Of a DNA stretch of 64,000 nt, positions 25,801 through 34,800 are shown one piece after another. Each line of letters begins with the position of its first letter. The stretch's first letter is position 1. The position numbers were made by a program. Source of the stretch: Podarcis filfolensis (taxonomy: Eukaryota); the NCBI GenBank assembly GCA_964270895.1, contig OZ185440.1; one strand, given 5' to 3'.

Positions 25801-28800
25801 GTAATCTTTAACAGGCAAAGCATTCCAAAGAGAAGGGGCCACCACAGAGATGGCCTTTTCTCGCATCACTCTACAGGCAGACTTGTATAGAAAGAGGTAT
25901 TTAGGTCTGATCATTTTTTATACATCAACATTAACACATTGAATTGAGTGCTGCAGGTTCTGCAGGACAAATGTTGTTATGTGGTTCCAACCGCCAGTAC
26001 TTCTCAACATCCTCAGAATTACATCAGCTACAGTTTTTAAACCATACGCAGCCCAAAAAGCACTTTACAATAATTCAACTGGGAAGTTACCATAACATGC
26101 GTTGCTATGGCTAGGCTTCCTAACCAGGAAAGGCCATCACTGACAAACTAGTAATTGGAACTCCTTGCCACCAGGACCATCAAGGACAGCACTGGATCAA
26201 GGAGAGCCCCAAGACCATGAGCTCACTCTTTCAAGAGGAGAACGAACCTATCCAGAACAAACTGTGTATTAAATTCCCAATCAGAGAACCAGCAACACAC
26301 AGGTAATCTAACCTGAATGTTACCAGTCCAGAGCATAGATAAGTGAAGTCAAACTATTAATATTCCAAGTAGAGTTGCATGTGGTGCATCACCTTAAGCT
26401 TATAAAAAGGATGCCATTCCATGGAAGCAACTCACACTTCAAGTGACACAAGTTGTACCTAAGTGTCTACACTCTCTTGTTCCTTACTTGTATCAGAAAA
26501 ATTTCCAGTGTGTGCTGACCCAAGTTACTGGAAGACCCAAATCACTGAATGAGAGCAATTTTTAAAGAATAAAATCTTTATGGACTACTGTGGGATAGCC
26601 CTCCATCAAAATAATGCTTGGGTCAATTAAAAGCCCTTCCTTATTGAGGCTTTACTTAGCTTCAGGTTGTGAAGGAGCAAGAGGCAACAAAAATAAGCCT
26701 ATCATCTCAGTCATTCCCTACTGTTTCTTCACTAGCAGAGGGCAGCCCATAACAGGCATATCATGAAGCCTGCAGGAAGCAAAGGAAAGTGGAAAGAGCA
26801 GACTTTGGTCATTTCCTGTAAAAAGAGCCTGACTGCAATGTGCAGAGAATAACTTGTCTTGGTAGCTGAGAGCATTTGGACCTTTTCACAAATGAAGCAA
26901 CCCAATCTTTTAAAAACAAAACCTGTGTTTATATAAGCTAGCTGCATGAATTCTTGTTGGGCAAATTAACTCTGTGATATGACTCAATATGTAGAGAAAG
27001 AATTTTAACCATTTCAGTTGCTATGAGTGTTTCCATGATTTACAAAGCTCTCCTTCATGCAAGAGCTCAATGGAGACCAAGAGCTGGGAAAATCTATAAG
27101 CTATAAATGAACCAATATACTATCTTTAAATGAAATTGTTGCTAAAAGAAAAGAACATACACTTGCTTCATTAAGGCAAATTATTACTTGGGGCATATTA
27201 TTTGGGACTAAAAGCAAGACCTTGAGATGTTAAACTGGCCCCCCAAAGCTTGAAATACGTGTTTCTTTAGTATTTAAATCAATTGGCAATTAGTGCTTTA
27301 ATTTCTTTTGTGTATAGAATGAAATATTGGCTCCAGCAATATTTGTATTTTGTAGGAAAAGGTAATGCGTATCTTGAGAACTGTAATGCATATCTTGAGA
27401 ACTTTAACTTTCCTTGCCTATTGTTTTAGATAGTAGAATTGAAGTGTATTGCACTATTGCATTATTTGTAATAAGGGTGCCAAGAATCTATCATCAAAGT
27501 AGTATGGAATTCCTGTCGCCTAGGCAGCCCAGGACTTCCAGACACACTGTCTAGGCTTGTGCCCTTAGTAGTAGTGTCCAATATATTTCCAGCGAAAAGC
27601 AGTAAAGTTCAATTCCATACACATACTATTTTCTGTGGAGGTGGATGAGAGGATTTTCACAGCACAAATCCTATCTTTGCATGTCTGCTTGGCTGTATTC
27701 TCCATTTTGCTCATGAATCCAACTCCCTAGTAAGTGTGCTTGGGATTGCATTCTCAGAATTGAATAAGCTTGAAAGGAGGGCAGCTGCTCATAGAATGTG
27801 CACTTATTCTACCACCACTTCCGATAAGCAGATTCTGTAGGTTTTCAAAATAGTACAAAATCTGTAAAACCTTCTTGACCAGAAACAACAGTGGGCATGG
27901 CTACCCTTAAAAGGTACAGGACAGATCACACTGCACACACCGCAGTTCTTTAATTTCCCCTTCTGTTTCTGCTGACCCTCTTCTCCATGACAGTGGTGGT
28001 GGTGACCCGTCCTCGTCCCAGATTATTTTTTTGTCAGTTTGGGTGCATGTTTTTCTTTTTAATAGCAGTGGTAGCCTCTCTGCTTGGAGCATATCATAAT
28101 CCGAATGATATGGCTAATCAAATGGCAATGCTGGTTACCAATTACCCTGCTTCAGCAAAGGATATTCAACTAGATTTTCAGATCCTGTTTGAAAGAAGCT
28201 GCAGTTGCGCCATTTTATGACATTATGCTATGTTGTAATATTTTTTCACCTGGTTTTTCCTCTGCAAGTAGTTACACTGTATTTTATAATATACTGGAAG
28301 CCATATGCCTGGTAATATTTTGCAGCTTCATACAGGCAAATAATGTTTTACTTATAAGCAAAACAAGTTGGATGAAAAAAGCCCAGTTGAACACATTTAC
28401 AAACATAAACATTGATGAAAATAAAAATGCAAATCCTCACTCTTACCAGAACACACTGATCTAGTTCCAATGTATCACAACAAAGTAGAACGTTTTCCCC
28501 CTACATCAGAAATGGAATAGGAGTCAATGATGTTAATTACTTGCAGAAGAGTTACAGTTTTACATACAATATGAATATTTAGTAGGGAGACTTCCTTATT
28601 AATATTTCATAAGAATACTGGCCATCCAAGCTACTTAATAGATTTAAACTTTTAATAAAGATTCTACTGAAAAAGACAGTATCTGCTTGTTTATTTCTGA
28701 GCAACACTCTTGAGATAAATGCCTTACATCAGTGTTCCCCAACCTTGGGCCTCCAGCTGTTTTTGGACTACAATTCCCATCATCCTTGACCACTGGTCTT

Positions 28801-31800: not shown

Positions 31801-34800
31801 GGGGCCCGAGGAGGAGCCCTGCTGGCTCTACAGCCGGCGTTGTGTTTCCCGCCCCTGCTGATTTTTTCCCCCGCGCAAGGCGCGCGCGCCCACTCACCTG
31901 GCCGGCCACCTGGTCTTGGTGCCTCCTCAGCGCCACCTGCGCGGCCGTCACGCGCTGCCTCTCGAGCACCAGCAAGCACGCGGCGCACGCGCACTCCCGC
32001 CAGCGGCACAGCCGCTTGTGGCCCTTGAGGCTGGACACCACGCCGTGGTTCCTGCAGCGCGCGCACTTGGGCAGTCGCTGGCTCAGCAGGCGCCGCGAGC
32101 CGGTGCTGAAAGCGCCGCAGCAGCCCTCGACCTCATGGCCGGGGCGCTCTGAAGAGTTGACGGGGCGGGCAGACTTAGCTTTTCGCTGCTGCCTGGAGGG
32201 CAAGGGCAACATGACGGACCTCTTGCTCGCTGTCTCAGGCCTTCTGAAGCTGTAGCTACTTTTTTTTTTTGGTGGGCTTGAAGGCACCTGCACAGGTTGG
32301 GCTTCACTTTGCTAGACGACAGCAAAGCCGCGTCGCATTTGCAACTTGTCGGGGCTGTAGCGCCCTCTGGCCGAGTCTGCGGCTGCTTCCCGTCGGCTCT
32401 CCTCTACAGCCGTGTCTTCTTCTGTCCTGCGTATTAGTAGCACCTTTTCTGATGAAGGCTCAGCCCGGCCCAGCCGTGATCTTTGACGTCAGTTCTCCAC
32501 TTCTCCCCACCACTTTCCACTCAATCAAATCTATTCTAGGCTTAACCCCTAAAATGCTATAGGACACAAGGCTCTGCTTTGCCGTCCTTCCCACAACACA
32601 CACGTATCGACCCATTTTCGAGTCCTGTACTACATCAATTATTGCCAAGAATCGGATGCATTATGAGAAGAACCTGGACTGTCAGCCTTGCAAGGCACAG
32701 TAAGTGAGGACGGTAATTCAAAATTACGCCTACCAGTGAGCAAGGACTAGGGCGATGTGTTTATTATGTTTCTTCATTACCTTTCTGGCAAGATACTCAC
32801 GGCATTTTACAGCAGAAAAGCACAAAAACAGATGCAACTCCTCCCCCAGCCAGTAAGAAAAAAAAATAATGGAGATTGCAACAGCAGATTTTAAAAAAAT
32901 AATTTTTGTAAATAGGAAACGGTCCTGAAAAACTCCACTGAAATAAGAGTTTTTACTGAACTTTCTTCAGTGGTTCACAGTCTTGACTTAGTCATTTAGC
33001 ATTTTAAAATCAAAACTAGCACCTTGAAACATGGCTGGAAGCAAATCAGTAACCAGTGAAGCTAGTAAAGGATTGGCATAATGTGATACAGCTGGCAGTT
33101 GCATGTGGAACTAATGGAACCTTTTGGGCATTATTTAATGACGGCTCCATGTAGAACATACTGCAGTACTGTAATCCAATCTCAAATTAACAAGAAATTA
33201 CTTTTGGTGTGTAATTCAAAGTTGGTAAAAAGCTGTCCTAGCCACCACTGATATCTGAGCATCTAAGTGCAGTTTTGAGTCTAGAACGCTCAAACTATGT
33301 ATACTTTTTTCCTCATTCAAATGCAGATGTATACATATTTAATCATTTAAATGATTAAAACTAACATGATTAATTGACTAAGATTTATTTAAAAGGGTGA
33401 TAGTCCTATTAATTGGTACGATAAACTAACATTTTAATCTACAATTACAATCTCTTAGCTAACTGATGAAATGAACAATAAATTTCAGGATTTGGGGCTC
33501 TTGTAGCACCAATAACTACAAGACTAGGTAAAAAAATAGTTTGCCATACTTATGACAATTGGCTTCTCTCTCATACTTTCCTATATAGTGATACCTCAGG
33601 TTAACTACTTAATTTGTTCCGGAGGTCCGTTCTTAATCTGAAACTGTTCTTAACCTGAAGCACCACTTTAGTTAATGGGGCCTCCTGCTGCTGCCGCGCC
33701 GCCAGAGCACGATTTCTGTTCTCATCCTGAAGCAAAGTTCTTAACCCGAGGTACTATATCTGGGTTAGCGGAGTCTGTAACCTGAAGCGTATGTAACCCG
33801 AGGTACCACTTTACTTCACAAAAGTCCACTCTCAAGGATCCACAAACAAACAAAAAAGAAACATTCTTTTATATTTAAATACACTATAGTTATTTAAAAT
33901 ATAGAATATTGACTTGAAAACCAGAAAATTCAAAAGCTTACATCTGTAGCACTACAAAAACAAGCAGAACTGCATACATCATTGCAAAATGATCCATGAT
34001 CTCTTGATCCAACTGCTGTTTGTCTTCAGTGTTATGAATTTCAAATTCAGGGTCAACTTTTAAATATAGTGTTTGATTCAGAACTAAAATACTAGAAGAT
34101 AATACTCCCATGTTGTAACACGTGTTCACCTAAGTAGTTGTAACACATGCTCACACAAGTAGTCTTGCACAGCTCTCACTCCTTTTGGTTGAGTTTGCAC
34201 ACAAGAATTTCTTACATGGTGGATTGTGACCTAGTGCACTAGTGCATTATTGTGACCTAGGCCACAATAATTTGTCCATCCTGGCTCATTTGTGATATGA
34301 AAGAGTGATTTCAGCCATGCAGTGATATGGCAAAACGCATCCTGACTAAAATGCCTTTGGCTCTGGATGTTGTTCGGTCACTTGAAATAGGAAATTTTTA
34401 TTAATCCTTCTATTGCTGCTCATTAGGTAAGCCAAGTAGGTATATGTTTGAATTTTCCATTAATTCTTCAACACTGTACTAGTAATTGTATTCAGATAAA
34501 AGTAACCTTGTTAATGTCCCCTCCGCCTTTTAAACATTTGAAGTCTGTTTCAGAACAAAAATGTGACATTTCAAAACTTAAGATCAGTATCAATGTTTAA
34601 TAGATTTAAGCAAAGAAAATGAAACTAACATTTGTAGCTGGTCTTTTTACAACGGAACACATTAAAGCAGAATGCTGTTCTTCATTCTTATTCTGATTTA
34701 TTACAAAAATAAATCCTATCAGGTAAGAACTGTGCTCTTTGCAAGGATGCTACTTTTTCCCAAAGTAAAGGCTGAGTAAGTAAAGGCTCTTCCCCACTTC

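What the first reader, a model, noticed from the sequence alone, without database searches (positions are those of the whole stretch)
28644..32212. Intact dmrt2b-type gene in an amniote, between GLIS1 and DMRTB1
Seen: a complete three-exon DMRT2-type ORF with canonical splice sites, located not in the DMRT1-DMRT3-DMRT2 cluster but directly downstream of DMRTB1. Established (from memory): dmrt2b is best known from fishes, where it lies near dmrt6 and lrp8, and it is absent from this block in human. Inference: this is the retained dmrt2b paralog. Outside the DM domain, the RMRKRRAFADKELE box and the LSFSVES tail it is highly diverged, and its role in reptiles is not known to me.
Basis: partly seen in the sequence, partly recalled or inferred. 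Interest (0 to 1): 0.65.

Follow-up and report, generated by a model that had tools for sequence, protein, structure and literature searches.

The report
Lizard dmrt2b gene beside DMRTB1
A lizard genome keeps an intact copy of dmrt2b, a developmental regulator gene that the papers searched here call fish-specific, and in this genome a small mobile element has landed in its last exon without breaking the reading frame.

Summary
On the minus strand, 32212-28644, there is a three-exon DM-domain gene with canonical splice sites and 436 codons. It lies 3.8 kb downstream of a complete four-exon DMRTB1 and 20.6 kb from the last exons of GLIS1. The genome is a lacertid lizard; the exons are 96-99% identical to Podarcis proteins.

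In two maximum-likelihood trees the gene sits with turtle, crocodilian and amphisbaenian "DMRT2-like" proteins. That group sits inside a clade with coelacanth, lungfish, shark and ray-finned-fish dmrt2b (support 95/90 and 100/99), apart from DMRT2/2a. An AU test rejects a recent amniote DMRT2 duplicate (p=0.0002).

Every passage on the point that I read in five held papers (2019-2025) says tetrapods lack dmrt2b, so this corrects the published picture. The protein models already sit in NCBI under other names.

- A 134-nt palindromic element plus a 10-nt target duplication lies inside exon 3. It adds 48 in-frame residues that four related species lack.
- A conserved alternative splice gives a 234-residue form that skips this insert.

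Expression, dN/dS and true absence in other squamates, birds and mammals could not be tested. Function is inferred from zebrafish dmrt2b.

The parts
31898..32212 (-). dmrt2b exon 1: ATG, N-terminal region and complete DM domain (105 codons)
   Evidence: Translation. Pfam DM E=2.4e-22. Zinc-ligand pattern intact and donor CAG|GTGAGT. 96% identical to Podarcis raffonei P0003. Matches the DMRT1 DM domain of PDB 4YJ0 at E=1.8e-23.
30234..30342 (-). dmrt2b exon 2 (109 nt, 36 codons plus 1 base)
   Evidence: Sequence and splice sites. Aligns to residues 102-142 of P0003 at 90% and to Rhineura P0004 at 72%. No Pfam family.
28644..29530 (-). dmrt2b exon 3, long form: DMRT2 box RMRKRRAFADKELE, variable region, insert, C-terminal tail LSFSVESLLKV, stop TAA
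   Evidence: Translation and acceptor. The search gave Podarcis at E=1.7e-150, Rhineura at 4.5e-106, then crocodile and turtles. 99% identical to P0003 outside the insert.
28731..28864 (.). 134-nt palindromic element (MITE-like) inserted in exon 3. With one 10-nt target duplication it adds 144 nt, or 48 codons, in frame.
   Evidence: Arms 28732-28785 and 28810-28863 are 54 nt each and 98% complementary. The insert shows as a 48-residue gap in P. raffonei, P. muralis, Lacerta agilis and Rhineura proteins. Only 1 of 6 frame and orientation combinations is stop-free, and it is the one present.
28865..28874 (-). target-site duplication, upstream copy (GATGTAAGGC)
28721..28730 (-). target-site duplication, downstream copy (GATGTAAGGC)
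29274..29276 (-). alternative donor inside exon 3 (last exonic base 29276, G|GTATGT), used by the 234-residue isoform annotated in three Podarcis species
28475..28500 (-). alternative terminal exon of the short isoform (…GGKRSTLL, stop TGA), downstream of the long form's stop
   Evidence: Acceptor tttctgatgtag|GG and reading frame. The tail is identical to that of P0387, P0388 and P0389.
31800..32400 (.). CpG-rich island over exon 1 and the 5' flank (G+C 0.58-0.72, CpG observed/expected 0.73-0.95). Flanks are at 0.1-0.3.
36055..43904 (-). neighbour DMRTB1 (DMRT6), four coding exons: 43904-43473, 41297-41046, 38454-38308, 36159-36055
   Evidence: Named hits. tblastn of P. lilfordi DMRTB1 covers residues 1-302. 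Pfam DM E=6.1e-22.
2592..8013 (+). neighbour GLIS1, last two coding exons (2592-2780 and 7873-8013), convergent with dmrt2b
   Evidence: One search gave 32 hits. 6 of 6 looked up are named GLIS1. Carettochelys GLIS1 residues 704-810 map here.

Best explanation
This is the lizard ortholog of dmrt2b. dmrt2b is the sister gene of DMRT2/2a and dates from the early vertebrate genome duplications. It has been kept in its ancestral place next to DMRTB1 (dmrt6) and GLIS1.

The gene encodes a DM-domain transcription factor. The zinc-binding DM module binds DNA. The DMRT2-family box and the C-terminal LSFSVESLLK tail are kept. The rest of the protein evolves fast, most of all on the squamate stem.

Two mRNA forms are likely:
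- a long form of 436 residues in this genome, against 388-391 in relatives;
- a short form of 234 residues that keeps the DM domain and the box but skips the tail.

In this genome a young palindromic element inserted into exon 3 in the one frame and orientation that stays open. The long form therefore carries 48 extra residues just before the conserved tail block. The target duplication keeps that block (DVRHLSQECC…LSFSVESLLKV) whole.

What is shown and what is inferred:
- Shown: gene structure, domain, orthology, synteny, and the insert.
- Inferred: that the gene is transcribed and works as a regulator. Its likely roles (pharyngeal pouch, somite and muscle patterning) are carried over from zebrafish dmrt2b.
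For: Structure and domain.

Orthology:
- Tree 1 gives the 2b clade 95/90 and the reptile group 100/100.
- Tree 2 gives the 2b clade 100/99, ordered sharks, then ray-finned fishes, against coelacanth, lungfish and reptiles.
- AU tests reject a reptile plus amniote-DMRT2 clade (dlnL 157, p=0.00023) and a reptile plus all DMRT2/2a clade (dlnL 34.9, p=0.0034).
- Emydura and Protopterus each have one gene in each clade.

Synteny in the window.

Same-contig evidence elsewhere, from equal contig lengths:
- Rhineura 2-like and DMRTB1 both sit on a 158,443,526-base contig.
- Emydura 2-like and DMRTB1 sit on 11,631,556, while its DMRT2 sits on 60,521,280.
- Carettochelys 2-like, DMRTB1 and GLIS1 sit on 65,767,246.
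- P. lilfordi 2-like and DMRTB1 sit on 96,959,041.

Long-term constraint:
- Open frames of 369-403 residues with a DM domain and the tail are kept in lacertids, Rhineura, turtles and alligator.
- The box is present in 15 of 15 reptile proteins and the tail in 14 of 15.

Signs of activity:
- A CpG island lies over exon 1.
- A short isoform with a non-homologous 7-residue terminal exon is annotated in three Podarcis species and is conserved in the window. Such a model is hard to derive without transcripts (inference).
Against: - No expression data and no dN/dS could be obtained, because no DNA of any ortholog was within reach.
- The squamate stem branch is very long (0.79-0.91 changes per column, against 0.02-0.10 for turtles). 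This could mean relaxed constraint.
- The insert sits in a block conserved from lizards to turtles and may harm the long isoform.
- An open frame after insertion has a 1 in 6 chance by luck.
- Of 21 squamate species with a named DMRTB1, 18 show no dmrt2b-like protein. The gene is therefore dispensable in many lineages, or unannotated there.
- In tree 1 the order within the 2b clade is unresolved, and both fast-evolving groups could attract each other.
Confidence: 0.8

Rival explanations
1. The gene is the true dmrt2b ortholog but is decaying in this species or lineage. The element insertion and fast sequence change would mark a gene on its way to becoming a pseudogene, and the open frame would be a leftover.
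For: - Insert inside a conserved C-terminal block.
- Long squamate stem branch.
- No dmrt2b-like protein seen for 18 of 21 squamate species that have DMRTB1.
- The gene is not seen in any bird, mammal or amphibian row, so losses are common.
Against: - There is no stop or frameshift in 436 codons.
- All zinc ligands, the box and the tail are intact.
- The CpG island is kept.
- All splice sites are canonical.
- Outside the insert, exon 3 is 99% identical to P. raffonei.
- The short isoform skips the insert altogether.
- The insert arms differ at 1 of 54 positions, so the event is recent and says little about long-term decay.
Confidence: 0.13
2. It is a recent, amniote-specific duplicate of DMRT2 that moved next to DMRTB1 and then diverged quickly.
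For: - NCBI names several orthologs 'DMRT2-like' or 'DMRT2'.
- The box and tail are shared with DMRT2/2a: box in 20 of 21 and tail in 9 of 21.
Against: - The AU test rejects it (dlnL 157, p=0.00023).
- Two trees separate the clades.
- Introns are present, so it is not a retrocopy.
- The same neighbourhood holds dmrt2b in gar and coelacanth (PMC6737965, passages read).
- In the 2b type the tail ends the protein, with 2 residues after it. In the 2a type 12 residues follow in the complete models. The window follows the 2b type.
Confidence: 0.02
3. The reptile genes are an old DMRT2-type paralog distinct from fish dmrt2b (for instance another product of the early genome duplications), and they are drawn to the fish 2b branch by long-branch attraction.
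For: - In tree 1 the relations among reptiles, coelacanth, lungfish, sharks and ray-finned 2b are unresolved, and the tool warns about long branches.
- Exon 3 aligns to teleost 2b over only 10-31% of its length.
Against: - Tree 2 recovers the species-tree order inside the clade at 100/99, 97/96 and 95/73.
- Coelacanth and lungfish proteins bridge the gap: 32% identity over 76% of exon 3 for Latimeria.
- No species in the set has two genes within this clade.
- Synteny with dmrt6 and glis is shared (PMC6737965).
Confidence: 0.04

Closest known systems
Zebrafish and other ray-finned-fish dmrt2b
   Same: - Same clade in both trees.
- DM domain and the RMRKRRAFADKELE box.
- Lies near dmrt6 and lrp8/kank4/glis genes in fishes (PMC6737965 and PMC7689362, passages read).
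   Different: - Only the box region of exon 3 aligns to teleost proteins, 10-31% of the query.
- Just 1 of 11 teleost proteins sampled matched the tail pattern.
- The zebrafish roles come from the search-listing abstract of PMC2749440 (Hedgehog, somites, left-right) and the abstract of PMC6310889 (pharyngeal pouches, cartilage). They are untested in any reptile.
Tetrapod DMRT2 (fish dmrt2a), in the DMRT1-DMRT3-DMRT2 cluster
   Same: DM domain, box and LSFSVES(I/L)LK motif. It is the sister clade within the DMRT2a/2b family.
   Different: - Separate clade (100/99, 91/87).
- Longer proteins: the 18 full-length models sampled have 487-573 residues, against 369-403.
- 12 residues follow the tail motif in complete models.
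- Different chromosome region: Emydura DMRT2 is on another contig than its 2-like gene.
NCBI models 'DMRT2-like' or 'uncharacterized LOC' of Podarcis raffonei, P. muralis, P. lilfordi, Lacerta agilis, Rhineura floridana, turtles and crocodilians
   Same: Direct orthologs, 96-99% identical for Podarcis, with the same three exons and the same alternative short isoform.
   Different: - None of the four full-length squamate models carries the 48-residue insert.
- None is named dmrt2b by its source.
dmrt6-dmrt2b cluster of spotted gar and coelacanth (Mawaribuchi et al. 2019, PMC6737965)
   Same: Tandem dmrt6 (DMRTB1) then dmrt2b in a region with a glis gene (passages read). The window shows the same trio.
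   Different: That paper reports the cluster only in gar and coelacanth and states that no dmrt2b sequence was found in tetrapod genome databases. Its Table S1 was not open to me.

Membership tests
DM-domain (DMRT) transcription factors | DM DNA-binding domain above the Pfam gathering score | tested here: met
   PF00751, 79 bits against a cut-off of 27, E=2.4e-22, profile positions 1-47 of 47. Matches PDB 4YJ0 DMRT1 at E=1.8e-23.
DM-domain (DMRT) transcription factors | Eight zinc ligands, C-x2-C-x2-H-x8-H-x3-C-x4-C-x-C-x2-C | tested here: met
   The pattern is found in the exon 1 translation.
DMRT2a/2b subfamily | Conserved box RMRKRRAFADKELE after the DM domain | tested here: met
   Present in exon 3. 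Found in 15 of 15 reptile 2-like, 10 of 10 non-teleost 2b, 8 of 11 teleost 2b and 20 of 21 DMRT2/2a proteins, and 0 of 8 invertebrate proteins under the strict pattern.
DMRT2a/2b subfamily | Groups with DMRT2a/2b and not with DMRTA or DMRTB1 in a family tree | tested here: met
   the DMRTA rows and the window's own DMRTB1 exon fall outside the 2a and 2b clades. Those outgroup branches are long.
dmrt2b ortholog group | Closer to fish dmrt2b than to DMRT2/2a | tested here: met
   Clade support 95/90 and 100/99. AU tests p=0.00023 and p=0.0034. The second group was named after the tree was seen.
dmrt2b ortholog group | Lies beside dmrt6/DMRTB1 in the glis1 region, not in the DMRT1-DMRT3-DMRT2 cluster | tested here: met
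   DMRTB1 stop at about 36055 and dmrt2b ATG at 32212. GLIS1 last exon ends at 8013. No DMRT1 or DMRT3 exon was seen in the window: only two DM-domain frames turned up.
dmrt2b ortholog group | The same genome also holds a separate DMRT2 (2a) gene | not testable with these tools
   This lies outside the window, and no lizard genome was within reach. It is shown for a turtle (Emydura) and a lungfish (Protopterus), which each have one gene in each clade.
dmrt2b ortholog group | Expressed and acting in development, as in zebrafish | not testable with these tools
   No transcript data. Only indirect signs: the CpG island and annotated isoforms in relatives.
Processed pseudogene or retrocopy | Intronless copy with frame disruptions | tested here: not met
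   Two introns with canonical sites and no stop or frameshift.

The most novel reading that the evidence does not exclude
dmrt2b was never fish-specific. It passed through the tetrapod and amniote stems and is still a working gene in turtles, crocodilians and lacertoid squamates.

It was then lost independently in amphibians, mammals, birds and most other squamates.

In this lizard a mobile element has been taken into the coding sequence of the long isoform, while a short isoform escapes it. That makes a natural test of how much of the C-terminus the protein needs.
Probability: 0.65. Interest if true: 0.6.

Novelty: new member of a known kind. Interest (0 to 1): 0.5.

Why it matters
Five papers in the held library, read as passages, state that tetrapods lack dmrt2b or that it is fish-specific:
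- PMC6737965 (2019)
- PMC7689362 (2020)
- PMC9095985 (2022)
- bioRxiv 10.1101/2025.06.11.659201 (2025)
- PMC12570769 (2025)

An intact, syntenic ortholog in reptiles changes the count of DMRT genes in amniotes. It turns one supposed loss at the tetrapod base into several later losses. It also gives a land vertebrate in which the pharyngeal and somite roles known from zebrafish can be tested.

DMRT genes matter for sex determination in reptiles, so an unrecognised family member should be included in gonad expression studies.

The finding is modest in kind. The gene family, the domain and the protein models are all known. What is new is the identity of these models and the in-frame element insertion.

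Tried and rejected
- One search failed on a wrong frame for exon 2. Corrected coordinates went through.
- Exon 2 (36 residues) has no Pfam family. It was only compared with orthologs by tblastn.
- By instruction the three exons were never joined. No search, fold or tree used a spliced window protein. The database protein P0003 of Podarcis raffonei served as the full-length stand-in, and the window's exons entered the trees as separate rows.
- A canonical intron that would remove the insert exactly was looked for by eye in the sequence. None was found: a GT start would end in AT, and only a weak GC-AG pair without a pyrimidine tract fits.
- Rfam gave no family anywhere in the window.
A PDB sequence search gave only family-level matches, to UCP1/2 and ADP/ATP carriers.
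- The literature search was badly designed. Its six terms with a minimum of two were swamped by papers without dmrt2b, so it is uninformative. Searches are the useful ones.
- dN/dS, transcript evidence and genome-level absence in other lineages were considered. They were dropped for lack of any eukaryotic genome or read collection.
- The supplementary Table S1 of PMC6737965, which lists the species searched, was not open.

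
Full report
**What is in the sequence**

The finding's interval holds a gene on the minus strand.
- Exon 1 runs from the ATG at 32212 to 31898. It has 105 codons and the donor CAG|GTGAGT.
- Exon 2 runs from 30342 to 30234. It is 109 nt, with acceptor ttgcatag|GTT and donor GAAG|GTATGT.
- Exon 3 runs from 29530 to the TAA at 28646-28644, after a pyrimidine-rich acceptor ttttgttgtag|CA.
- The phases fit, giving 436 codons.

Evidence that this is not chance:
- Exon 1 carries a full DM domain (Pfam PF00751, 79 bits against a cut-off of 27, E=2.4e-22).
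- All eight zinc ligands are present.
- Exon 1 matches the DNA-bound DM domain of DMRT1 in PDB 4YJ0 (E=1.8e-23).
- Exon 3 is open for 311 codons in DNA of 39% G+C. It is the second longest of the 31 frames of at least 110 codons in the window.
- A CpG-rich island covers exon 1 and its 5' flank (G+C 0.58-0.72, CpG observed/expected 0.73-0.95, against 0.1-0.3 nearby).

The window has no N.

**Which genome**

- Exon 1 is 96% identical over its whole length to a 388-residue NCBI model of Podarcis raffonei, "DMRT2-like isoform X1" (P0003).
- Exon 3 outside the insert is 99% identical to the same model.
- The neighbouring DMRTB1 is 97% identical to that of P. lilfordi.
- No sequence is identical to the window's, so this is a lacertid lizard, most likely another Podarcis.

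**Neighbours**

- The other DM-domain frame, at 43.9 kb, is DMRTB1.
  - Of 273 hits at E ≤ 0.001, the best are named DMRTB1 of P. lilfordi, Zootoca and Rhineura, then 18 further squamate species, then crocodilians, birds, turtles and mammals.
  - The P. lilfordi protein maps with residues 1-302 onto four minus-strand exons: 43904-43473, 41297-41046, 38454-38308 and 36159-36055.
- A 66-residue frame at 2586-2783 on the plus strand found 32 representatives.
  - The six long ones I looked up are all named GLIS1 (6 of 6).
  - Carettochelys GLIS1 residues 704-810 map to 2592-2780 and 7873-8013.

**Orthology**

Exon 3 found 136 proteins at E ≤ 0.001 among 810 candidates, with 120 listed. In order, the listing gives:
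- Podarcis and Rhineura;
- a crocodile and an alligator;
- nine turtle species;
- coelacanth and lungfish;
- six cartilaginous fishes;
- ray-finned-fish proteins, most of them named dmrt2b.

No listed row is named as a bird, mammal or amphibian.

Tree 1 (careful maximum likelihood, 68 rows by 531 columns):
- Both window exons sit with P. raffonei (100/98).
- All reptile rows form one group (100/100).
- That group lies in a 34-row clade with coelacanth, lungfish, sharks and ray-finned 2b (95/90).
- The 22 DMRT2/2a rows, with turtle, bird, mammal and amphibian DMRT2, form another clade (100/99).
- Emydura and Protopterus each have one gene in each clade.

Tree 2 (long outgroups and partial rows removed, stricter columns, 48 rows by 393 columns):
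- The 2b clade has 100/99.
- Its inner order follows the species tree. Cartilaginous fishes come first. Then ray-finned fishes (100/99) stand against coelacanth, lungfish and reptiles (95/73, 92/86, 100/100). Within reptiles, squamates stand opposite alligator plus turtles.

AU tests:
- Reptile genes together with all DMRT2/2a costs 34.9 units (p-AU 0.0034). I named this second group after seeing the tree.

Equal contig lengths in the search tables also put the 2-like gene and DMRTB1 on one contig in four species:
- Rhineura;
- Emydura, on an 11.6-Mb scaffold, while its DMRT2 lies on another contig;
- Carettochelys, together with GLIS1;
- P. lilfordi.

**Family features**

The strict box pattern (R[ML]RKRR[AT]FADKELE) is a feature of the whole DMRT2a/2b family, not of 2b alone. 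It is found in:
- 15 of 15 reptile proteins;
- 10 of 10 non-teleost 2b proteins;
- 8 of 11 teleost 2b proteins;
- 20 of 21 DMRT2/2a proteins.

The tail motif is found in:
- 14 of 15 reptile proteins (Rhineura has a variant);
- 1 of 10 non-teleost 2b proteins;
- 1 of 11 teleost 2b proteins;
- 9 of 21 DMRT2/2a proteins.

In the 2b type the tail ends the protein. In complete 2a models 12 more residues follow.

The squamate stem branch is long, 0.79 and 0.91 changes per column, against 0.10 and 0.02-0.12 for the turtle side.

*1. An element inside exon 3*
- An inverted repeat with 54-nt arms, 98% complementary and 24 nt apart, lies inside exon 3 at 28732-28863.
- It is a 134-nt palindromic element flanked by a 10-nt direct duplication.
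- Together they add 144 nt, or 48 codons (RCSPTLG…GNTDVR).
- The proteins of P. raffonei, P. muralis, Lacerta agilis and Rhineura lack these residues as one 48-residue gap.
- Of the six ways to read the element (three frames, two orientations), only one has no stop, and that is the one in the gene.
- The duplication repeats the codons for DVR. The conserved end block DVRHLSQECC…LSFSVESLLKV stays whole behind the insert.
- I found no canonical intron that would remove it.
- A 21-nt probe from one arm, allowing up to 3 mismatches, matched nothing in the window beyond the element's own two arms.
- Whether relatives lack the insert at the DNA level, and whether it is fixed in this species, stayed unchecked.

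*2. A short isoform*
- The cluster of P0003 holds 234-residue isoforms in P. raffonei, P. muralis and P. lilfordi.
- They use a donor inside exon 3 and a small terminal exon that ends …GGKRSTLL.
- Both are conserved in the window: the last exonic base is 29276 before GTATGT, and the exon is 28500-28475 after tttctgatgtag.
- This form keeps the DM domain and the box, drops the tail and skips the insert.
- A model with such a non-homologous end is unlikely to come from protein homology alone. It hints at transcript support in Podarcis, which is my inference.

**How it most likely works**

- Shown: a complete DM-domain protein gene of the dmrt2b lineage in its ancestral location.
- Inferred from established knowledge of DM proteins and the match to 4YJ0: it binds DNA through the zinc module and acts as a transcription regulator.
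- Inferred from zebrafish dmrt2b:
  - a role in pharyngeal pouches and cartilage through cxcl12b and crossveinless 2 (abstract of PMC6310889);
  - a role in somites, Hedgehog signalling and left-right patterning (search-listing abstract of PMC2749440).
- Nothing here tests these roles in a reptile.

**Distribution**

- Of 21 squamate species with a named DMRTB1, only P. lilfordi, P. muralis and Rhineura also show a dmrt2b-like protein.
- P. raffonei and L. agilis add two more species.
- The 18 others, including Zootoca and the teiid Salvator, show none.
- The search needs shared 5-residue words and covered lengths of 161-515 only. This is therefore "not seen", not "absent".

**Literature**

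I ran eight full-text searches.
- "dmrt2b" alone gave 76 papers.
- It was then combined with reptiles and tetrapods, turtle, lizard, amniote, and "reptil".
- I found no statement that a tetrapod has dmrt2b in the listings or in the passages I read.
- I read passages of eight papers and the abstract of a ninth, not all 76.
- One search was uninformative.

Passages read:
- PMC7689362: dmrt2b is "unique to fish", and reptiles have a single dmrt2.
- PMC9095985: tetrapods have only one Dmrt2.
- bioRxiv 10.1101/2025.06.11.659201: Dmrt2b is among the mammal- or fish-specific families.
- PMC12570769 repeats the single-dmrt2 statement.

Subscription journals and supplements were not searchable, so an earlier report elsewhere cannot be excluded.

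**Verdict**

- The gene is a new member of a known kind. It already exists as unnamed or misnamed database models, and it contradicts a statement repeated in those five papers.
- The in-frame element and the short isoform are additions to the finding.
- Orthology is firm.
- Activity in this species is likely but unproven.

Noticed in passing
window 48129-49544 (+): An intronless open frame of 471 codons holds three mitochondrial-carrier repeats (Pfam Mito_carr, E=2e-46), upstream of DMRTB1 in a G+C-richer stretch. From memory it resembles the phosphate carrier SLC25A3, whose parent gene has introns, so this looks like an intact retrogene. The name was not confirmed: the Atlas was closed, and PDB gave only family-level matches.
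   Followed up: partly
window 18066-18554 (+) and 18632-18799 (+): A 162-codon frame with no Pfam hit is followed by a frame with a C2H2-like CPHCGRTCGSRIGLHSHLRTH motif. It looks like the tail of a LINE-type retroelement, which is recalled and not tested.
   Followed up: no
window about 31640-31710, 43340-43400 and 55900-56000: Three frames translate to similar peptides: [20 protein letters not shown], its antisense [16 protein letters not shown], and WKPPRMAGVTQSDGRGTSN. Each lies next to an A/T-rich simple repeat. This points to a dispersed SINE-like repeat, with one copy in dmrt2b intron 1 and one just after DMRTB1 exon 1.
   Followed up: no
window 28651-28656 (-), 28058-28063 (-), 27949-27954 (-): These are the only poly(A)-signal-like hexamers (ATTAAA) in the scanned stretch 28660-27600, downstream of the two terminal exons. 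The first overlaps the last codons of the long form, which would give a very short 3' UTR. No AATAAA is present in that stretch.
   Followed up: partly
whole window: No Rfam family reaches its gathering score on either strand.
   Followed up: yes
related proteins P0006, P0014, P0022, P0392: Several crocodilian and Pelodiscus models of the ortholog lack the DM domain or are short (170-314 residues). Newer models of the same species (P0393 with 373 residues, P0395 with 369) have the domain. The gene seems to be hard for annotation pipelines, which may explain why it was overlooked.
   Followed up: partly
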